Below, piece by piece: positions 698 through 8,271 of a DNA stretch of 64,000 nucleotides. The DNA is taken from positions 170,811-234,810 of the IMG/VR virus record IMGVR_UViG_3300037466_002980, one strand, 5' to 3'. This DNA comes from a virus. Its lineage: Duplodnaviria; Heunggongvirae; Uroviricota; Caudoviricetes. Within the stretch, counting starts at the first letter, position 1, and each line of letters starts with the position of its first letter. Under the pieces are notes generated by a model. The model worked only from the letters and a program-made list of their open reading frames with translations. It was not told the DNA's origin and searched no databases. The position numbers were made by a program, and so were the translations under genes.

Positions 698-710
698 AAT
701 GTTCTATAAA

Positions 711-799
711 TGGCGGAAAGTATAGGATTCGAACCTATGCATCCATTTTCTGAACGACAGTTTAGCAAACTGCTGCCTTAACCACTCGGCCAACTTTCC
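711..799 (-). tRNA. tRNA-Ser(GCT)
   Basis: Cloverleaf; anticodon arm GCAGT-TT GCT AA-ACTGT; long variable arm; GTTCGAATC; encoded CCA. Confidence 0.95.
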
Positions 800-802
800 A
801 AA

Positions 803-1102
803 TTAATTGTTATCCGATTTAGCAATTGCGCTCATAAGACATAATGCATTTATTCGCAATTCTTTTGTTTTTCTATTATCGGGATTTCCAAATACACCCT
901 TAACGAGCGTGTTCTTATTTAATTGATTTTGAAACAAATATGCAATTGCCAGCGATTCCGGATCATTATAATCAAAAAATTTCATTGACATTTGCTTCTT
1001 ATGTTTTAACATGTAAATGGCATGACAAGCATACCTTGCTTTATTGGAAAATACCAATTCGGCTGCTTTTCTATATAATTCACTTTGTTTCATATCTATC
1101 AA
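803..1102 (-). CDS. hypothetical protein
   Basis: 99-aa ORF filling the gap between tRNAs, just downstream of a sigma70-like promoter. Confidence 0.6.
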   Translation of the reverse strand: MIDMKQSELYRKAAELVFSNKARYACHAIYMLKHKKQMSMKFFDYNDPESLAIAYLFQNQLNKNTLVKGVFGNPDNRKTKELRINALCLMSAIAKSDNN

Positions 1103-1115
1103 TATTTGAATCTAT

Positions 1116-1144
1116 ATTATACCGTCTTAAATTTGAAATAGCAA
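1116..1144 (-). promoter_or_regulatory. sigma70-like promoter
   Basis: TTGCTA-17 nt-TATAAT. Confidence 0.7.
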
Positions 1145-1146
1145 TT

Positions 1147-1221
1147 TGGCAAGGGCTGATGTATTCGAAACATCTACAATCACGCTCAGAACGTGACGCG
1201 TCGCCATTCCGCCTAGCCCCA
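1147..1221 (-). tRNA. tRNA-Gln(CTG)
   Basis: TCACG-TT CTG AG-CGTGA; G73; CCA. Confidence 0.85.
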
Positions 1222-1230
1222 ATAAATCTA

Positions 1231-1305
1231 TGGACCCGCTTAGAGGAATCAAACCTCTATCTTAAGTTTCGAAGACTTTTATATTATTCATTATACGAAA
1301 GCGGG
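1231..1305 (-). tRNA. tRNA-Arg(TCG)
   Basis: Acceptor CCCGCTT/AAGCGGG; loop CT TCG AA; CCA; AT-rich D arm. Confidence 0.8.
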
Positions 1306-1312
1306 AAAAATC

Positions 1313-1388
1313 TGGTGGAACACATGGGAGTCGAACCCACCTAATCTACCTTATGAGAGTAGTGCATCAGCCGCTCTGCCAATGTTCC
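1313..1388 (-). tRNA. tRNA-Met (elongator) or Ile2 (CAT)
   Basis: CTACT-CT CAT AA-GGTAG; G1-C72 paired, so not an initiator; CCA. Confidence 0.9.
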
Positions 1389-1393
1389 GAAAA

Positions 1394-1444
1394 CAGGTTA
1401 CGTTTCTTTTTACCAAAATAGAATTAAATTGCCGAATGTAACCT
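1394..1444 (-). ncRNA. C(A/G)GCA-helix RNA, minimal copy
   Basis: AGGTTAC/GTAACCT-G helix; ATTCGGCAA motif; internal hairpin with loop TT GGT AA; same frame as the 3577 and 7249 copies. Confidence 0.6.
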
Positions 1445-1450
1445 TTAAAA

Positions 1451-1526
1451 TGGTGCTGCCTCGTGGAATCGAACCACGTTCACATGCTCTTCAGGCACGC
1501 GCTATGACCACATCAGCTAAAGCAGC
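1451..1526 (-). tRNA. tRNA-Phe(GAA)
   Basis: CGTGC-CT GAA GA-GCATG; CCA. Confidence 0.95.
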
Positions 1527-1527
1527 A

Positions 1528-1797
1528 TTAATCTTTAAAGACATGTATTTCTTCTCTTTTCTTCTTTAATTTAACTTCTTGTTCATCATAATGATGTTCG
1601 AGATAAAGAATTAAACCTTCGTCAAACGTCCAATTATTTTGTTTACAGAAATTACTAAACATTAGGAAATCTTTTGAATATGCTTCCGGCACATAAATTT
1701 TTGATTGTTTTAGTAATTCTAAAAATTCAGTTGGCGGAGTTCTTTTAAGATGACGGAAAACTTTCTCATCTGCATTATTTGAACCATTCTGGAACAT
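1528..1797 (-). CDS. hypothetical protein
   Basis: Track ORF 1528..1881; start reassigned to ATG 1797, which has a GGAAGG SD and a short overlap with the upstream gene. Confidence 0.55.
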   Translation of the reverse strand: MFQNGSNNADEKVFRHLKRTPPTEFLELLKQSKIYVPEAYSKDFLMFSNFCKQNNWTFDEGLILYLEHHYDEQEVKLKKKREEIHVFKD

Positions 1798-2236
1798 CTC
1801 TTTCCTTCCACGATGCAATTTCTTGCTTATATTTTTTATAATAATTTCTATAACTTTGAATAGGATCATCTGTCTTAACATCCCCCGGCATTGCTAATCT
1901 AAAAGGTGTTTTACCGATTGCAGGCAATGCAGGAACAGGTAATATTTGAATAACATCAAATGCCTTATGATTGATAGATTTCTTATATCTATATTGATAT
2001 TCTTTATTTAATTCTGTTGCTAAATCTCTTAACCATAACCAATTATCAAGTGATTCCCTAACCCAAATTGCACTAGGATGATTTTTATGTGTTATCTTGT
2101 AACCTATATCATTTCCCGATAATCTAACTGCTGTACTCAATAATTGAGCATATTCGGTAATCATCTTCACTACATGTTTATCTACATGGTAGGTTGCATT
2201 TAGATAATGATTATTGTCTAAATAAAAAATATTCAT
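1775..2236 (-). CDS. pyrimidine-dimer DNA glycosylase (DenV/Pyr_excise)-like protein
   Basis: MNIFYLD...HVVKMITEYAQLLS...THKNHPSAIWVR motifs of this phage family. Confidence 0.7.
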   Translation of the reverse strand: MNIFYLDNNHYLNATYHVDKHVVKMITEYAQLLSTAVRLSGNDIGYKITHKNHPSAIWVRESLDNWLWLRDLATELNKEYQYRYKKSINHKAFDVIQILPVPALPAIGKTPFRLAMPGDVKTDDPIQSYRNYYKKYKQEIASWKERDVPEWFK

Positions 2237-2430
2237 TCTATGTCTTTAGGACTAACTAAAATCCATCTAACATTTCCGGATGAATCTGAAAATTCTAATT
2301 CAATGCCATATTCGTTAATCTCCGAAATGGATCCTTCAACGCAATCAGAAACTAATTTCTTAATTGCAATTTGATCTTCTTCGGGAAGTCCATTAAGCAA
2401 CTCCGGCGATGCTTGTTTTAGTTTTACCAT
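2233..2430 (-). CDS. hypothetical protein
   Basis: Track start lies inside tRNA-Gly; start moved to ATG 2430 (MVKLKQ). Confidence 0.55.
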   Translation of the reverse strand: MVKLKQASPELLNGLPEEDQIAIKKLVSDCVEGSISEINEYGIELEFSDSSGNVRWILVSPKDIE

Positions 2431-2446
2431 ATGTACTTGATTAATT

Positions 2447-2520
2447 TGGAGCGGGTAACGAGAATCGAACTCGTACGATAACCATGGCAAGGTCACAGGC
2501 AACCATTACATCATACCCGC
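2447..2520 (-). tRNA. tRNA-Gly(GCC)
   Basis: TGACC-TT GCC AT-GGTTA; U73; CCA. Confidence 0.95.
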
Positions 2521-2521
2521 A

Positions 2522-2761
2522 TTATTCTACTAATTTGTTTACTTCTTCGAAACTAATCTCTTGTAATGTTCTTTCGTTTAACCCTCGTCTGGGGTTAGAA
2601 CACATCCAACAACTACATGGTTTTGGTGTATCTACAACCATTCCGAGTTGCCTTCCCGGATCTAACTCATTATTAATATGGTGCAAATCTTTACCCCAAT
2701 AGAAACGACGTTTTTTCTTTAATCTTTCTATATGAGCTCTTCTTTCAGATCTATCTCTCAT
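2522..2761 (-). CDS. small basic protein with CxCxxC motif
   Basis: AGGAG SD; TPKPCSCWMCSNPRR. Confidence 0.75.
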   Translation of the reverse strand: MRDRSERRAHIERLKKKRRFYWGKDLHHINNELDPGRQLGMVVDTPKPCSCWMCSNPRRGLNERTLQEISFEEVNKLVE

Positions 2762-2771
2762 ATTATTCTCC

Positions 2772-2862
2772 TGGAGGAAGAAGGACGTATCGAACGCCTA
2801 CCGAAAAATATCGATACCTCTGTTTTCGAAACAGCGATGGGGACCTCCCCACAACATCTTCC
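2772..2862 (-). tRNA. tRNA-Ser(CGA) with Sec-like, (8/4)-type fold
   Basis: Acceptor GGAAGATG/CTTCTTCC; 6-bp D stem with 4-nt loop; loop TT CGA AA; long V arm; 4-bp T stem; CCA. Confidence 0.75.
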
Positions 2863-2871
2863 GATAAAATC

Positions 2872-2945
2872 TGGTAGGTCATGACAGAATCGAACTGCCG
2901 TCATTGCCTTGTAAAAGCAAGGTTCTCCCATTAAACTAATGACCC
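2872..2945 (-). tRNA. tRNA-Val(TAC)
   Basis: TTGCT-TT TAC AA-GGCAA; CCA. Confidence 0.95.
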
Positions 2946-2960
2946 AATTTAATACTGTTT

Positions 2961-2989
2961 ATTCTAAATTATTTCAGAATGATTGTCAA
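2961..2989 (-). promoter_or_regulatory. sigma70-like promoter inside the tRNA array
   Basis: TTGACA-17 nt-TAGAAT. Confidence 0.75.
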
Positions 2990-2990
2990 G

Positions 2991-3067
2991 TGGTACCCCT
3001 GGTAAGATTCGAACCTACAACCAACAACTTTTGAGGATGTCCGCACTACCAATTAGCGTACAGGGGC
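2991..3067 (-). tRNA. tRNA-Leu(CAA), short variable arm
   Basis: Loop CT CAA AA; A73; CCA. Confidence 0.85.
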
Positions 3068-3076
3068 ATTTTTATT

Positions 3077-3164
3077 TGGAGTGCCGTACTGGATTCTAAC
3101 CAGTGTGGGATTTTAATCCATCAGTTTTGCAGACTGCTGCCTTCGTACGCTCGACCAACGGCAC
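3077..3164 (-). tRNA. tRNA-Cys(GCA), long variable arm
   Basis: Loop CT GCA AA; U73; V-arm hairpin GGATT-AA-AATCC; CCA. Confidence 0.85.
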
Positions 3165-3170
3165 ATTATT

Positions 3171-3264
3171 TGGTGGGTGTTGTGGGTTATCGAACCACGA
3201 CCCCTATTATCCATATTCACTGGTAGTGATAGATAACAGTGCTCTCCCTCTGAGCTAAACTCCC
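3171..3264 (-). ncRNA. tRNA-like RNA with an extended anticodon arm
   Basis: Normal acceptor, D arm and CCA; anticodon arm is 10 bp + 3-nt bulge + 5 bp with an ACC tip. Confidence 0.7.
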
Positions 3265-3268
3265 AATA

Positions 3269-3472
3269 TTAGAATAAAATTCTATATCTATATTGAATTC
3301 CACCTCGAATATATATTGCACTTGATGAACTCTTATCCTTTTGATAATTTCCATCATTTGTTATAGTAGGAAATAGATCCGAGGTAAGATAAAATTTACC
3401 GTGTTCGAATTGCATTGAAGAACATCCGGTAGATAGTACACCGAACAGTACAATAGATAATAGGCGTTTCAT
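3269..3472 (-). CDS. putative lipoprotein
   Basis: MKRLLSIVLFGVLSTG-C lipobox-like signal; start moved out of tRNA-His. Confidence 0.6.
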   Translation of the reverse strand: MKRLLSIVLFGVLSTGCSSMQFEHGKFYLTSDLFPTITNDGNYQKDKSSSSAIYIRGGIQYRYRILF

Positions 3473-3488
3473 TACATTATTTATTATC

Positions 3489-3564
3489 TGGGCGGTCATT
3501 ACGGTTACGATCCGTTCTTACCTGTTTCACAGACAGGGGTGGTAGCCACTCCACTAAATGCCGC
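3489..3564 (-). tRNA. tRNA-His(GTG)
   Basis: CCTGT-CT GTG AA-ACAGG; G-1/C73; atypical acceptor and T stem; CCA. Confidence 0.85.
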
Positions 3565-3576
3565 ATAAATTCAAAA

Positions 3577-3697
3577 CAGGTTCGCATTTTTTAAGTTCTA
3601 CCGCTAAACTAATGTGGCGACCAACTCACATCCGGGATTCGAACCCGGGCCTTCCTTTTACAATAAAGATATAATTTAAATTTGCTGAAACGAACCT
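3577..3697 (-). ncRNA. circularly permuted tRNA-like RNA closed by the CAGCA helix (Y/YrlA-like architecture)
   Basis: AGGTTCG...CGAACCT-G closing helix; order is anticodon arm, T arm, loop-closed acceptor, D arm. Confidence 0.75.
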
Positions 3698-3702
3698 AAT
3701 GG

Positions 3703-4122
3703 TCAATTCTTTTTTAATTCCTCAATCAATTCTTCTACATTGTAGAATACACCACTGGCAAATTGATACATGACATCCCAACGTTCGGGATTGTCTAATA
3801 GGATATAACCAGGTTTTCCACAACCGATAACGTATCCTAATTCTAAATGTGCAGATTTTCCTGCAGGTAATGCTAGAACTGCGATATCATTTCTGTCAAG
3901 GTGAAATTTATCGAAATTATAGACATGCTTCGCTGCATATCCTTGTAGAGCAGTTTTGTAATCATGCCCCTTTGCTTTCTCGTGATCTCTCCAACAGTCA
4001 TCTGCATTCTCGGAAGCTGACCACCAATCATCAAATACTTCGTGTCCTGCATTTCGCAATTTATTAGCGATATTAACAATTTCTGTATTTCTTAATGAAC
4101 CGATTAAATAAATGTTTGCCAT
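3703..4122 (-). CDS. nucleoside 2-deoxyribosyltransferase-like (NDT/TIR-like fold) protein
   Basis: IYLIGS...GHEVFDDW...D...LPAGKSAHLELGY pattern. Confidence 0.7.
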   Translation of the reverse strand: MANIYLIGSLRNTEIVNIANKLRNAGHEVFDDWWSASENADDCWRDHEKAKGHDYKTALQGYAAKHVYNFDKFHLDRNDIAVLALPAGKSAHLELGYVIGCGKPGYILLDNPERWDVMYQFASGVFYNVEELIEELKKN

Positions 4123-4130
4123 AATGTAAT

Positions 4131-4159
4131 ACTTTAAAACAAATACTTATTTAATGCAA
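4131..4159 (-). promoter_or_regulatory. sigma70-like promoter, probably giving a near-leaderless mRNA for 4122
   Basis: TTGCAT-17 nt-TAAAGT; the -10 box is 8 nt before the ATG. Confidence 0.55.
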
Positions 4160-4279
4160 GATTCTTCATTTAGAATTACGAACATATTCAATATATTGTT
4201 AGAAATTCTGTGATGGGGTTCACTTACGCCGGTACAATCCGGTTCCCATAACCCTCTGGGTAAACATAACAATATAATC

Positions 4280-4357
4280 TGGTACCCAAGGTGGGATTCG
4301 AACCCACACTGTACGGTTTCTAAAACCGGTGTCTCCTGCCAATTGCACTACTTGGGC
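4280..4357 (-). tRNA. tRNA-Leu(TAG), short variable arm
   Basis: CCGGT-TT TAG AA-ACCGT; CCA. Confidence 0.9.
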
Positions 4358-4423
4358 ATAAGGAATAGTAACAGATTCGTTCACATACGGCTCCCGCCTC
4401 CACTGTATATTCCTGTAAAATAT

Positions 4424-4510
4424 TTCAAATAGAATGGTTGTAGTGGACTCGAACCACCTCTCCCGCTTGAATGGCGAGTATCCTGCCCCTAGACGAACAA
4501 CATATTTGAA
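4424..4510 (-). ncRNA. aberrant tRNA-Glu-like RNA
   Basis: D, anticodon (CA TTC AA) and T arms intact; acceptor irregular and extended by TTCAAATA/TATTTGAA. Confidence 0.6.
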
Positions 4511-4636
4511 TTCTTAAGTATGATTACTCATACTGTCCATTGTCACTTCATTGACCTACTTTGATTGTGTTCCTTGCCATCGGTCGACGTTCGTTTCGCG
4601 ACTCAGTTGGAAATAGACTAGCCATACTTAAGAAAT

Positions 4637-4710
4637 TGGCATCCCGGGAAGGACTCGAACCCTCACAAACAGTTTTGGAGACTGTGGTGCTGCCATTACA
4701 CTACCGAGAT
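4637..4710 (-). tRNA. tRNA-Trp(CCA)
   Basis: ACAGT-CT CCA AA-ACTGT; G73; CCA. Confidence 0.95.
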
Positions 4711-4716
4711 AAAAAT

Positions 4717-4792
4717 TGGCTCCGGTGACTGGGATCGAACCAATGACCAACGGATTAACAATCCGCCGCTCTACCTACTGAGCTACACCGGA
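4717..4792 (-). tRNA. tRNA-Asn(GTT)
   Basis: GCGGA-TT GTT AA-TCCGT; CCA. Confidence 0.95.
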
Positions 4793-5296
4793 ATAAAAAC
4801 ATATTCTTTCAAATATTTCTATTGCATTTTCTTTTAAAATCCATTCTCCTGATTCATTTGTTATATTTGGATGTTGAAGTATTTGTTTTTCAACATCCTT
4901 TCTATTAAGAACAAAATCATATTTTTCAATCTTAAATCTTCGAAATGGATCATATGTCTGATATTGATTTAATCTTGTATTTAAATCAAGAGTCATTCCG
5001 ATTTTGTAATGATCTTGATATATCGGATTAGAAATTATATATACCAATCCAGAATCGATATCGTTAAATTTTGCACCATATTGATAATTAACCTTCAATA
5101 ATGTTAATCCGGCTAATCGTCTTGCAAATCTATATTGATTTTTTCTTATTAAACCTTTATTTTTCTTATTAAATATTTTTCCATATATTTTTATATATTC
5201 ATTAAGAATATTATCATTTATTTGAAATATATCTTTAGGAATCACAGAATTCGCTATCATTTCGTCGATAACAATTCTCTCAAATTCCTTCAACAT
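4775..5296 (-). CDS. T5orf172/GIY-YIG family nuclease
   Basis: GLVYII...YKIGMT..L..RL.QYQT.DP motif. Confidence 0.8.
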   Translation of the reverse strand: MLKEFERIVIDEMIANSVIPKDIFQINDNILNEYIKIYGKIFNKKNKGLIRKNQYRFARRLAGLTLLKVNYQYGAKFNDIDSGLVYIISNPIYQDHYKIGMTLDLNTRLNQYQTYDPFRRFKIEKYDFVLNRKDVEKQILQHPNITNESGEWILKENAIEIFERICFYSGVAQ

Positions 5297-5602
5297 TTAA
5301 ACCTTACCTTTTAGAAAATTTGCTGTATCATCTTCATCGATTTCACTGTAGACAGGAATATCTGGATCTCTTCTTCCACCTAACCAACGATATATTTTTG
5401 TCTGATAGAGTGAACTTTTACTTAAAGCAGCATCTAATGCTATTTTATGTCCATCTCTCATAATTTCGATTTTTCGATTACCACTATCATTTTCATAACA
5501 ATGAATATAATACTCCGTAGTATAATATCCATTTGATACCTTATGATTAAATGTTTTTACATGAACAAATTTTTCTTTTTTCTTAAACCAAGGAAAAATC
5601 AT
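5297..5602 (-). CDS. hypothetical protein, paralog of 5599..5919
   Basis: Shared C-terminus RW.GR.DPDIP.Y.EIDE.DTAN.LKGKV. Confidence 0.75.
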   Translation of the reverse strand: MIFPWFKKKEKFVHVKTFNHKVSNGYYTTEYYIHCYENDSGNRKIEIMRDGHKIALDAALSKSSLYQTKIYRWLGGRRDPDIPVYSEIDEDDTANFLKGKV

Positions 5603-5919
5603 ACCTTACCTTTCAGATAATTAGCAGTATCCTCTTCATCAATTTCATCATATTGTGGAATATCGGGATCTTTTCTTCCCAATTCCCACCGTCTAATTTT
5701 TTCATGATATATGGTTCGTTGATTTGCAATATATGCAAGATCTACTTTCTTTTCGTACGTCGAAGAAAATTCAACCTGTCTGTTATCTTTATTAGATTGA
5801 AGTAAATTATAGTAAAAGGTAATATCAACTTCACCATCATGTGTGTTGAGTTTAAAATTTTCAGAAATTATTTTTACTAATTTCCATTTTTCTTTTTCAA
5901 ATCTTTTAAATATCGACAT
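5599..5919 (-). CDS. hypothetical protein, paralog of 5297..5602
   Basis: Shared C-terminus; ATGA stop/start overlap. Confidence 0.75.
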   Translation of the reverse strand: MSIFKRFEKEKWKLVKIISENFKLNTHDGEVDITFYYNLLQSNKDNRQVEFSSTYEKKVDLAYIANQRTIYHEKIRRWELGRKDPDIPQYDEIDEEDTANYLKGKV

Positions 5920-5924
5920 ATTTT

Positions 5925-5998
5925 TGGTGCGGGTACCGGGAATCGAACTCGAGACTTCTGTTTGGAAGACAAATGTTATACCACTTAACTATACACGC
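5925..5998 (-). tRNA. tRNA-Gly(TCC)
   Basis: TTTGT-CT TCC AA-ACAGA; CCA. Confidence 0.9.
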
Positions 5999-6329
5999 AT
6001 TAATTTAGAATGTCAACTATGATTAATTTGCTTTCTTTCGCCACCTATTCCGTCGAAACGGTTTGGACTTACACCATGCTGATAGGCTATTGCATTATTG
6101 CCGGAAGAATTTGAACCATTATCCTGAGCGAAATACTCTGTCGATAGTAATCAGCTATCCTAGCAAATCAAAAAATAATTATAGTCACATGGAAGATTTG
6201 ATATCATGGCGTCCCAAGTATCATCACATTACCACTTACGTCTTCACTATGTAGAACTTCTCCAACACGTAGAGCTTCACACATAGGAGTAGAACCATAT
6301 GACTCACTAGGAGCTACCTAATAGAAAAC

Positions 6330-6452
6330 TGGTCTCGCCTGAGGGAATCGAACCCCCTCCTCTCCCTTCTGATGGAATTGAAATTTAGTGCTGAACGAAT
6401 TCTTAGACAGAATTGCTTTCGTTTAGCGTGCTAGCCGTTACACCAAGGCGAA
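6330..6452 (-). ncRNA. CCA-ended tRNA-like RNA with the CAGCA helix inserted in the anticodon stem
   Basis: Acceptor TTCGCCT/AGGCGAG-A-CCA; normal D and T arms; about 45-50 nt insertion containing AATTCTG-TCTA-AGAATT-CGTTCAGCAC. Confidence 0.75.
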
Positions 6453-6532
6453 AAATATGGCAGGCCCTCATGAATCCGAGTATAAGGTTTTGGACATCAT
6501 AGTGACATCGGGAGCGCCTATAAAATCATTAC

Positions 6533-6608
6533 TGGTAGGGGCACTGGGACTCGAACCCAAGAACTCACGGTTTAAGAGACCGGTACGTTACCATTACGCC
6601 ATACCCCC
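6533..6608 (-). tRNA. tRNA-Lys(CTT)
   Basis: CCGGT-CT CTT AA-ACCGT; CCA. Confidence 0.95.
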
Positions 6609-6610
6609 AA

Positions 6611-6671
6611 ATCGAAATAGCGGCTTTCAAGACCGGTTTCAATAAATTTTGCAAATTTAATATATTTCGAT
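6611..6671 (-). ncRNA. small three-way-junction RNA bearing two anticodon-like arms
   Basis: ATCGAAATA/TATTTCGAT closes TAAAT-TT GCA AA-ATTTA and CGGT-CT TGA AA-GCCG. Confidence 0.55.
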
Positions 6672-6678
6672 CAAAAAT

Positions 6679-6757
6679 TGGCGTCCCTACGGGGATTCGA
6701 ACCCACGCTTTTTACCTTGAAAGGGTAACGTCCTCAAACCATATAGACGATAGAGAC
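6679..6757 (-). tRNA. tRNA-Glu(TTC)
   Basis: TTACC-CT TTC AA-GGTAA; G73; CCA. Confidence 0.92.
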
Positions 6758-6768
6758 AAGAAAAATAT

Positions 6769-6843
6769 TGGCATCCCGTAGGGGTTTCGATCCTTCTCAT
6801 TAGTTTGAAGGACTAACGGCCACGGCCAGCTGCCTCACGGGAT
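6769..6843 (-). tRNA. atypical tRNA with loop CCTTCAA (TTC with C33); identity uncertain
   Basis: Acceptor ATCCCGT/ACGGGAT-G-CCA; TTAGT/ACTAA stem; T loop ATCGAAA. Confidence 0.6.
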
Positions 6844-6844
6844 A

Positions 6845-7144
6845 TTAAGGAATATAATCGAAAGGTCTATGATACTGATCTTTTCGATTATCCATATAAT
6901 TCATTATAAAAATTTGTGGAATTATGTGCATTCCTGGATCAAGTCGAAGTTTGAAAAATTCTAAACAGTCGTTCTCTTTTAATTCAACCTCAAAAATATT
7001 TCCATCAAAAATTCTAGCCAGAGAGTTATATCGAAATTCTATTTTCTTAACACCTAATCTTATTCTTGTTTTTTCGTAATCCGGCCAGTCATCGGCGGGA
7101 TAATTAACCGAAATTTCAATACCGATATATAAAATTCTAGACAT
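6845..7144 (-). CDS. hypothetical protein
   Basis: 99-aa ORF exactly filling the gap between tRNAs. Confidence 0.65.
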   Translation of the reverse strand: MSRILYIGIEISVNYPADDWPDYEKTRIRLGVKKIEFRYNSLARIFDGNIFEVELKENDCLEFFKLRLDPGMHIIPQIFIMNYMDNRKDQYHRPFDYIP

Positions 7145-7158
7145 GGTTGAATTATTAA

Positions 7159-7233
7159 TGGTGCTCCCGAAAGGAATCGAACCTTACGTCTTCGCGTTAT
7201 CAGCACGCTGCTCTGCCATTGAGCTACAGGAGC
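7159..7233 (-). tRNA. tRNA-Ile(GAT)
   Basis: Loop CT GAT AA; CCA. Confidence 0.92.
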
Positions 7234-7248
7234 AAAATTAAAATAGGA

Positions 7249-7385
7249 CAGGATCACTTTTTACGTTGCTCTACCAAACTGAGCTATTGCTTCGTTAAAT
7301 GTAACAAAAATACACTTAACGAAGCAAGTGGGATTTGAACCCACGACCTACGGCTTGACATGCTAATGATTGCTGCAGGGATCCT
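7249..7385 (-). ncRNA. circularly permuted tRNA-like RNA closed by the CAGCA helix (Y/YrlA-like architecture)
   Basis: AGGATC...GATCCT-G helix; T arm GTGGG-TTCAAAT-CCCAC precedes a loop-closed 12-bp acceptor and D arm GCTC-AGTTTGGTA-GAGC. Confidence 0.8.
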
Positions 7386-7393
7386 TTAAAAAC

Positions 7394-7468
7394 TGGTCAG
7401 GGAGCACAGAATCGAACTGTGTCTACGAGGCTCCAAAGCTCGGCGGCTAACCATTACCATACACCCTG
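7394..7468 (-). tRNA. tRNA-Pro(TGG)
   Basis: C1-G72; loop TT TGG AG; CCA. Confidence 0.92.
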
Positions 7469-7565
7469 AAAAACTTTGGTAGATTATATACGCCATCATA
7501 CCGGGGCAATTATCTAATGTAATAATGCAGATTGGAATAGGAAGTCTTTCTATATTACATCTAAC

Positions 7566-7643
7566 TGGAGCTCCCAGAAGGAATCAAACCTTCATCCACG
7601 GACTACAAAACCGTTATAATCTAATCCATTATACTATAGGAGC
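7566..7643 (-). tRNA. tRNA-Thr(TGT)
   Basis: Loop TT TGT AG; acceptor GCTCCTA/TGGGAGC; CCA. Confidence 0.85.
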
Positions 7644-7650
7644 AAAAAGT

Positions 7651-7726
7651 TGGCGCCGCCAAGGAGGATCGAACTCCTACTACAACCGTGACAGGGTCGC
7701 GTGCAGTACCACTACACTATGGCGGC
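7651..7726 (-). tRNA. tRNA-Asp(GTC)
   Basis: CGACC-CT GTC AC-GGTTG; G73; CCA. Confidence 0.95.
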
Positions 7727-7902
7727 AAATTGGTCTAGGTATCCAGTATATTTCTATAGTAACCAGGTAACCCAGATGAAATTAGACAAGCTTCACACTT
7801 GATTGAACGTTCCATTCGCTTACTGCAACGTCTAAGCTTCGCTCGGTTTCTCTCGCGCCTTTAACATTCTAGCAAGCGCGGCTATGTACACAGAGAGAAA
7901 TT

Positions 7903-7978
7903 TGGTGGACCAGGAGGGAATCGAACCCTACTTACAATTTCCTTGCAAGGGAAACCAGTAACCCCATTACTCAAGCCC
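7903..7978 (-). tRNA. tRNA-Ala(TGC)
   Basis: TTTCC-CT TGC AA-GGAAA; G3.U70 pair; atypical D arm; CCA. Confidence 0.85.
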
Positions 7979-7985
7979 ATAATTC

Positions 7986-8070
7986 TGGTGGAGTAGCTAG
8001 GAATCGAACCTAGATGATCAGTGATGACAGTTTTACAGACTGCCCCGCCTCCATAACGGTCTACTACTCC
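7986..8070 (-). tRNA. tRNA-Tyr(GTA), first tRNA of the array
   Basis: GCAGT-CT GTA AA-ACTGT; long V arm; CCA. Confidence 0.92.
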
Positions 8071-8271
8071 AAAACACTCTTTCGAATGTTGATATTAAAA
8101 TACACCATTTTTGATATATTTTAATATCCTAGATTTTTACCACCTACGTTATCTCCATAGGCTTCTCATCTTCTAGTACGCCCTCATTAATAGCTAGATG
8201 TTTTTACGGTGCCTGGCAGGATCGCGTTTCCTATACACACCGTCCATAATACGTCCTTAGACTTAACATGG

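What the first reader, a model, noticed from the sequence alone, without database searches (positions are those of the whole stretch)
3577..3697. Second permuted tRNA-like RNA (TGT loop) with a different sequence but the same fold
Seen: AGGTTCG-TTTCAGCAA-linker-TCTTT AT TGT AA AAGGA-AGGC-CCGGG TTCGAAT CCCGG-ATGTG [loop] CACAT-TA-GTTT AGCGGTA GAAC-TTAAAAAATG-CGAACCT-G. Helix sequences differ from the 7249 copy while pairing is kept. This within-genome covariation supports a selected structure rather than a rearrangement accident.
Basis: seen in the sequence. Interest (0 to 1): 0.72.

Follow-up and report, generated by a model that had tools for sequence, protein, structure and literature searches.

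The report
Phage Y-RNA-like tRNA mimic, knotted subtype
A giant phage carries a small conserved RNA gene shaped like a transfer RNA with its parts re-ordered and hung on a short "handle"; it is probably not a tRNA but the partner of a ring-shaped, Ro60-like phage protein (a relative of which defeats a bacterial defence), and this copy's subtype appears to tie its front end onto its sealed acceptor loop.

Summary
Observation confirmed; interpretation partly supported. 3577-3697(-) is a conserved structured element with the YrlA Y-RNA layout (T arm, loop-closed acceptor, D arm inside a terminal helix), but with a CAGCAA box instead of YrlA's Ro60 motif.

- Family: about 200 distinct matches in viral contigs and MAGs; acceptor pairs, not part of the search pattern, hold in 88-93% versus 41-55% shuffled.
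- Partner: the family travels with DUF2828 (24/25 complete genomes versus 0/15 tRNA controls). This genome's DUF2828, 29 kb away, folds as Ro60 (Z 22.7) and is 43% identical to Bas63 gp130, a published anti-ppl protein.
- Not a tRNA-Thr precursor: the 'TGT' triplet varies among orthologues, and the acceptor has 5 bp and no CCA.

Expression and binding are untested.

The parts
3576..3705 (-). Whole predicted RNA (about 125-130 nt): leader, CAGCAA handle and re-ordered tRNA-like body
   Evidence: ends inferred, not mapped
3700..3705 (-). 5' leader TGACCA, complementary to the acceptor loop (probable pseudoknot); overlaps the stop codon of ORF 3703-4122
   Evidence: GACC present in 14 of 15 other loop-bearing orthologues whatever lies upstream; compensatory variants in L001, L153, L188; absent in L406
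3690..3698 (-). 5' strand of the closing (handle) helix; core AGGTTCG 3697-3691
   Evidence: pair probability 0.77-1.0; family covariation
3682..3687 (-). CAGCAA box, predicted protein-binding motif; ends an 11-nt motif (3692-3682) like that of Dictyostelium Class I RNA
   Evidence: binding inferred
3670..3681 (-). A/U-rich 5' linker
   Evidence: sequence; variable length in the family
3653..3669 (-). Anticodon-like hairpin, 5 bp and 7-nt loop (U33, A37, A38; triplet TGT not conserved)
3649..3652 (-). 4-nt variable region; C48 can form the Levitt pair with G15
   Evidence: G15:C48 or A15:U48 in 146/163 family members
3632..3648 (-). Canonical T arm, 5 G-C pairs
3612..3631 (-). Acceptor stem closed by a loop: 5 bp, positions 1-72 and 2-71 mismatched, no CCA; conserved loop TGGTC at 3623-3619
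3595..3611 (-). U8-A9 and D arm
   Evidence: pair 12-23 is T-A here and G-C in orthologues
3576..3594 (-). A-rich 3' linker, 3' strand of the closing helix (3585-3577) and the CTGT end
   Evidence: G follows the helix in 143/163 members
7249..7385 (-). Paralogue of the main subtype, with a 17-bp acceptor
   Evidence: Rfam YrlA 39.5 bits, E 2e-7, model positions 23-87 only
6330..6452 (-). Sister form and circular permutant: normal tRNA order with 7-bp acceptor and CCA, handle inserted as a hairpin after the D arm
   Evidence: same form in five other distinct loci and twice in Aeh1
1394..1444 (-). Handle-only RNA (CGGCAA box), 51 nt
   Evidence: Rfam Class I model 23.9 bits, E 0.007

Best explanation
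A non-coding RNA of a widespread phage Y-RNA-like family that partners the Ro60-fold protein DUF2828 (gene at genome 143909-145345, 29 kb outside the window, same strand). Shown: conserved structure, genomic association, and Ro60 fold of the protein. Inferred: (1) it is cut from the polycistronic tRNA transcript; (2) the closing helix plus CAGCAA binds the outer surface of the ring, as Y-RNA stems bind Ro60; (3) the body folds into a tRNA L-shape that resists nucleases and tethers or gates the ring toward a host RNA-processing partner (PNPase-like, by analogy) or the phage's RNA-repair enzymes; (4) in this subtype the 5' leader pairs with the acceptor loop, sealing the acceptor end and protecting the 5' end, so it is never matured or charged.
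For: YrlA layout, and a YrlA hit for the paralogue. Family covariation in helices the pattern did not impose. DUF2828 in the same locus in 43/131 versus 1/119 tRNA-control loci, p 5e-13; same strand 59/59; whole records 40/46 versus 1/36, complete ones 24/25 versus 0/15. Reverse test: 62/80 DUF2828 loci carry a handle, 103 on the same strand and 0 opposite. Handle follows protein: the same tRNA core carries an AGCGAA stem in phages with TROVE Ro60, and the one complete genome without DUF2828 has TROVE. Model pLDDT 92.8; Foldseek top 13 all Ro60; VIA Z 22.7, rmsd 3.6 A over 404 residues. A handle RNA sits just upstream of this genome's DUF2828 gene; an Rnl2-type ligase lies 1.7 kb from it and RtcB elsewhere. 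Phage Ro60 binds Y-like RNAs and host PNPase in vitro (PMC12135203).
Against: No binding or expression data. This copy is 29 kb from the gene, beyond the 4-kb rule for YrlA. It folds weakly alone. Three complete close relatives that encode DUF2828 have no match to the strict tRNA-body pattern, so this form may be dispensable. Bas63 gp130 counters ppl from a plasmid or from T7, where these RNAs are presumably absent, so that activity seems not to need them. Genomes are not phylogenetically independent, although the link spans mycobacterial, Listeria, enteric and cyanobacterial phages.
Confidence: 0.7

Rival explanations
1. Decoy for host anticodon nucleases or tRNA-sensing defences: the stable body displays a fast-changing anticodon loop that soaks up the nuclease, and the handle only stabilises it.
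For: Many members keep an anticodon-like loop (U33 73%, purine-37 91%, A38 87%; four or more stem pairs in 64/161 versus about 21 expected) with diverse triplets. It sits in a tRNA array.
Against: Many members have lost the hairpin, and handle-only RNAs exist. Position 32 is A here. A decoy needs neither a tight link to DUF2828 nor a leader-loop pairing.
Confidence: 0.12
2. Permuted gene for a functional tRNA-Thr(UGU), matured by joining the ends and opening the acceptor loop.
For: All four arms are present; sister forms with open CCA ends exist; 17/147 members have CCA at positions 74-76 in the loop; M. smegmatis YrlA is cut by RNase P; the genome has RNA ligases.
Against: 5-bp acceptor with 1-72 and 2-71 mismatches and no CCA; triplet not conserved; the handle and linkers would have to be excised; the window already has a normal tRNA-Thr(TGT) at 7566-7643.
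Confidence: 0.04
3. Cis-acting processing or autoregulatory element in the tRNA-array transcript, bound by DUF2828, rather than a free RNA.
For: It lies 5 nt after a stop codon and 13 nt before tRNA-His with no promoter match of its own; handle RNAs often sit in the leader of the DUF2828 gene.
Against: Upstream neighbours vary among orthologues; a full tRNA-like body and the sister forms point to discrete RNAs.
Confidence: 0.09
4. Decaying remnant of two adjacent tRNA genes (3' half plus the next 5' half).
For: Weak isolated fold; patchy among close relatives; tandem tRNAs are a known false positive for YrlA.
Against: The acceptor strands pair with each other and covary among orthologues; closing helix, box and leader are not tRNA-derived; the arms match no tRNA of this genome exactly.
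Confidence: 0.04

Closest known systems
YrlA Y RNAs with Ro60/Rsr (Rfam RF02553; Chen et al. 2014, PMC4201824)
   Same: Order V, T, closed acceptor, D; tRNA tertiary nucleotides including the Levitt pair; several RNAs per genome; same-strand link to a Ro60-fold protein.
   Different: CAGCAA box and a perfect 7-bp closing helix instead of GNCGAA(N)G; partner is DUF2828, not Pfam TROVE; often keeps a 7-nt anticodon-like loop; open-acceptor sister forms exist; leader-loop pairing in this subtype; no Rfam hit for this copy.
Bas63 gp130 (bioRxiv 10.1101/2024.10.10.617714)
   Same: 43% identical to this genome's DUF2828; reported as Ro60-like and as a counter to the ppl defence; the authors guessed that Y RNAs lie nearby, and four handle RNAs do.
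   Different: The RNAs were not identified there, and the anti-ppl effect was seen with the protein alone.
Thermus phage phiLo Ro60 with Yrl1/Yrl2 (PMC12135203)
   Same: Phage Ro60 ring that binds adjacent Y-like RNAs and host PNPase.
   Different: TROVE-type protein, CGAA motif; no tRNA-like body is described in the passages I read.
Dictyostelium Class I RNAs (RF01414; PMC7919456)
   Same: Short terminal stem, 11-nt motif with T3, C6, C9, A10, A11, CUGU end, variable interior; the model's four best hits in this genome are the four short handle RNAs.
   Different: 42-65 nt, eukaryotic, no tRNA body, RRM-protein partner reported; scores 17-24 bits against a cut-off of 41.5; homology not shown.
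Circularly permuted tRNA genes of red algae and archaea (from my own knowledge, not looked up)
   Same: tRNA arms in rotated order.
   Different: Those yield normal tRNAs through bulge-helix-bulge splicing; here I see no such junction, no 7-bp acceptor and no fixed anticodon.

Membership tests
YrlA (RF02553) | T arm, closed acceptor, D arm order | tested here: met
YrlA (RF02553) | Conserved tRNA tertiary nucleotides (U8, A14, 15:48, G18, G19, T-loop) | tested here: met
   sequence; 15:48 covaries in 146/163
YrlA (RF02553) | 5' GNCGAA(N)G Ro60-binding motif | tested here: not met
   CAGCAA instead
YrlA (RF02553) | Within 4 kb of a TROVE-domain gene | tested here: not met
   no PF05731 match in the genome; DUF2828 is 29 kb away
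YrlA (RF02553) | Rfam gathering score 69 bits | tested here: not met
   no hit for 3577 at E up to 10; paralogue 39.5 bits
YrlA (RF02553) | Bound by Ro60 and PNPase; pseudouridine 55 and dihydrouridine | not testable with these tools
   needs experiments
Ro60 (for the DUF2828 partner) | Helical ring plus vWA fold over the whole length | tested here: met
   VIA Z 22.7, rmsd 3.6 A, 404 aligned to 1yvr; Foldseek top 13 all Ro60
Ro60 (for the DUF2828 partner) | MIDAS residues | tested here: met
   D268, S270, S272, T339, D371 invariant in 144 sequences
Ro60 (for the DUF2828 partner) | Pfam TROVE PF05731 | tested here: not met
   DUF2828 plus DUF7788 instead
Ro60 (for the DUF2828 partner) | Binds a Y-type RNA | not testable with these tools
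   the complex tool does not score RNA partners
Permuted tRNA gene | 7-bp acceptor able to give a mature tRNA | tested here: not met
   5 bp here, mostly 6 in orthologues
Permuted tRNA gene | Conserved anticodon identity | tested here: not met
   about ten different triplets among 16 orthologues
Permuted tRNA gene | Bulge-helix-bulge junction and circular intermediate | tested here: inconclusive
   none seen by inspection; the intermediate cannot be tested
Dictyostelium Class I RNA (RF01414) | Terminal stem, five invariant motif positions, CUGU end | tested here: met
   sequence against PMC7919456
Dictyostelium Class I RNA (RF01414) | 42-65 nt and Rfam score 41.5 bits | tested here: not met
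   121 nt or more; 3577 not hit; siblings 17.5-23.9 bits
Dictyostelium Class I RNA (RF01414) | DUSE promoter element upstream | not tested
   eukaryotic promoter, not expected in a phage

The most novel reading that the evidence does not exclude
The leader-loop pairing is a switch. The loop's GG core is complementary to the CCA end of tRNAs (as in T-box antiterminators and RNase P, from my own knowledge) and the leader mimics that end. Uncharged or damaged tRNAs would displace the leader, be captured on the loop and be delivered to the Ro60-like ring and the phage ligases: a trans-acting tRNA-end sensor in an undescribed ribonucleoprotein that may share ancestry with Dictyostelium Class I RNAs.
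Probability: 0.1. Interest if true: 0.88.

Novelty: new variant of a known kind. Interest (0 to 1): 0.62.

Why it matters
It names testable RNA ligands for DUF2828, a large protein family of phages, bacteria and plants with one demonstrated anti-defence member. The handle that follows the protein type gives a natural specificity experiment. The open and sealed circular permutants show that handle plus tRNA body is one 3-D unit, which bears on the open question of what the tRNA-like module of Y RNAs does. The handle also offers a candidate relative for the orphan Class I RNAs of social amoebae. Interest is tempered because the principle (Ro60 plus a tRNA-mimic Y RNA) is known and nothing here shows function.

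Tried and rejected
Rfam at gathering and E-value thresholds: no family for this copy. TROVE search of the genome: none. Single-sequence PDB search: uninformative; the profile gave only weak Ro60 hits, E 0.025-0.12. First strict viral scan: 0 hits; the metagenome scan only re-found one contig. Sequencing runs: no RNA holder was listed, which says nothing about expression. Promoter scan: chance level. tRNA-Thr identity: rejected. Family-wide leader-loop pairing: not above shuffles outside the subtype (0.26 versus 0.22). Coupling to the upstream stop codon: seen in only 2 of 15, rejected. One search used pre-filtered members and leans toward the structure; (unfiltered) is the fair test. Paper searches found no description of these RNAs; the Sim 2020 review and the Chen 2014 supplements were not held, and Burroughs and Aravind 2016 did not come up, so prior mention there is not excluded. 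No covariance model was built and no R-scape test was run. No complex prediction was run, because RNA partners are not scored.

Full report
Context. The window comes from a complete 362,810-base virus record, a jumbo phage whose neck protein is 35-40% identical to those of PA5oct and Atu_ph07. Bases 700-8100 hold a minus-strand array of 22 called tRNAs. The element lies 5 nt after the stop of a nucleoside-deoxyribosyltransferase-like ORF (3703-4122) and 13 nt before tRNA-His, with no promoter match of its own. Co-transcription with the array is inferred.

Observation. The full grammar occurs twice in the genome and never in 2000 simulations. Folded alone, only the closing helix and T arm are stable (z -1.3), so this copy's structure rests on comparison with relatives.

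Family. Pattern scans that imposed only CAGCAA, a T loop and a D arm gave 196 distinct elements in viral contigs and MAGs. Features that were not imposed appear strongly. Acceptor positions 1-7 pair in 88-93% of all 196, against 41-55% when shuffled, using all pair types. A closing helix starting 10 nt before the box has 7/7 Watson-Crick pairs in 122/163 and is followed by G in 143/163 (its 3' strand was chosen by best match, which inflates the pairing). Pairs 27-43 and 28-42 form between the D-arm flank and the pre-variable region in 87-90%, and 15:48 covaries in 146/163. An anticodon-like loop is often kept, with 28 different triplets in 84 cases. So the body is a near-complete tRNA whose chain is opened in the 5' strand of the anticodon stem, where the handle is attached, and whose acceptor ends are joined by a loop. 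The reciprocal form, with a normal CCA end and the handle inserted as a hairpin, occurs at 6330-6452, in five other distinct loci and twice in Aeh1.

Relation to YrlA. This order of arms is that of bacterial YrlA (PMC4201824), and the 7249 paralogue hits the tRNA-like part of the YrlA model. But 3577 gives no hit, lacks the GNCGAA motif, and the genome has no Pfam TROVE match. It works like YrlA but is not a member by the published criteria.

Partner protein. It is a 478-aa protein at genome 143909-145345, with a handle RNA just upstream. Its model (pLDDT 92.8) matches Ro60 over the whole length. The association holds in both directions: 43/131 RNA loci versus 1/119 tRNA-control loci; 40/46 versus 1/36 whole records, and 24/25 versus 0/15 complete ones; 62/80 DUF2828 loci carry handles, all 103 on the gene's strand. 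Control contigs were somewhat smaller, and relatives are not independent, but the link is seen in phages of four bacterial phyla. Three contigs carry almost the same tRNA core as 3577 on an AGCGAA-type stem; the two of them that I searched encode TROVE Ro60 rather than DUF2828. The single complete genome lacking DUF2828 has TROVE and an atypical handle. The handle therefore tracks the protein type, the best indirect sign that it is the binding site. The protein is 43% identical to Bas63 gp130, which a preprint reports as Ro60-like and as a counter to the ppl defence, even when expressed alone.

What is particular to this copy. A syntenic orthologue (L406) and a loop-based scan define a subtype: purine-rich variable side, self-contained anticodon-like hairpin, 5-7-bp acceptor with compensatory changes, D-stem pair 12-23 switching between T-A and G-C, and varying triplets (TGT, GTA, GGA, GCA, GAA, AAT, CGT, TGA). 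14 of 20 such mostly fragmentary records encode DUF2828. Just upstream of the closing helix, GACC recurs in 14 of the 15 other loop-bearing orthologues, whether a tRNA, another handle RNA or an ORF precedes it. It is complementary to the loop TGGTC; here TGACCA (3705-3700) can pair with 3623-3618, duplex energy -7.8 kcal/mol. Three members found without the loop constraint show compensatory versions: TACCT with AGGTA (BUCT-ZZ01), TTGCCG with CGGCAA (L153), TGCC with GGCA (L188); a CC:GG core is kept in all. Among members chosen by an independent purine criterion, 68% have four or more Watson-Crick pairs versus 22% in three controls. That figure is inflated, because about half were retrieved with the loop in the pattern and share ancestry. 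L406 keeps the loop but lacks the leader. I put the pseudoknot at about 65%.

Mechanism. Most likely the RNA is cut from the array transcript, docks by helix and CAGCAA on the DUF2828 ring, and uses its tRNA shape as a nuclease-resistant tether or gate for RNA-processing partners, as Y RNA does for PNPase (PMC4201824; phage example PMC12135203). An Rnl2-type ligase 1.7 kb from the gene and an RtcB suggest an RNA-repair setting. All binding and functional steps are inferred. Maturation into tRNA-Thr is unlikely, since RNase P cleavage of YrlA was attributed to a 7-bp acceptor.

Other resemblance. The handle meets the five invariant motif positions and the CUGU end of Dictyostelium Class I RNAs, and that Rfam model's top four hits in the genome are the short handle RNAs, below cut-off. 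This is a lead, not proof of homology.

Novelty. I found no paper describing these RNAs, though some key texts were not available. The scan has noted the family in at least 62 other genomes; those notes are not independent evidence. Verdict: real, a new variant of the Ro60/Y-RNA kind, interest 0.62.

Noticed in passing
window 3170-3264 (-): tRNA-shaped element missed by ARAGORN and Rfam: D arm, then a long (about 15 bp) hairpin in place of the anticodon arm, odd T loop, CCA-like end.
   Followed up: no
window 4435-4501 (-): Short tRNA-like element with a 5-bp acceptor, Glu-like loop and canonical T arm; not called by ARAGORN.
   Followed up: no
window 6769-6842 (-): Uncalled 74-nt tRNA-like element with an atypical T loop, ending in CCA.
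   Followed up: no
window 6000-6330, 7735-7900, 8100-8270 and 4510-4630 (-): GC-richer intergenic stretches between tRNA genes with apparent hairpins and no Rfam hit at gathering scores; possible further non-coding RNAs.
   Followed up: no
window 5297-5602 and 5599-5919 (-): Two tandem paralogous ORFs (101 and 106 aa) with near-identical C-termini, inside the tRNA array.
   Followed up: no
window 3491-3563 (-): tRNA-His with non-canonical D and T loops (33.5 bits).
   Followed up: no
genome 166875-167048 and 145414-145508 (-), outside the window: Three more handle RNAs; one is directly upstream of the DUF2828 gene and one carries a lone T arm.
   Followed up: partly
L225:11100-11300, L226, L227: Probable unannotated canonical-type phage YrlA (AGCGAA stem) with nearly the same tRNA core as 3577; the L225 and L227 contigs each have two TROVE genes.
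   Followed up: partly
L355:8000-8290 (phage Aeh1): Two open-acceptor sister forms with variant boxes (CTGCAA, CCGCAA); one is annotated as a 122-nt tRNA-Val.
   Followed up: partly
G113 record behind L526, 114278-116799: DUF2828 gene matched in two pieces about 1 kb apart, perhaps interrupted by an intron or mobile element.
   Followed up: no
L355:3827-5407: The Aeh1 DUF2828 annotation notes similarity to an Arabidopsis protein, so eukaryotic homologues might also have handle RNAs.
   Followed up: no
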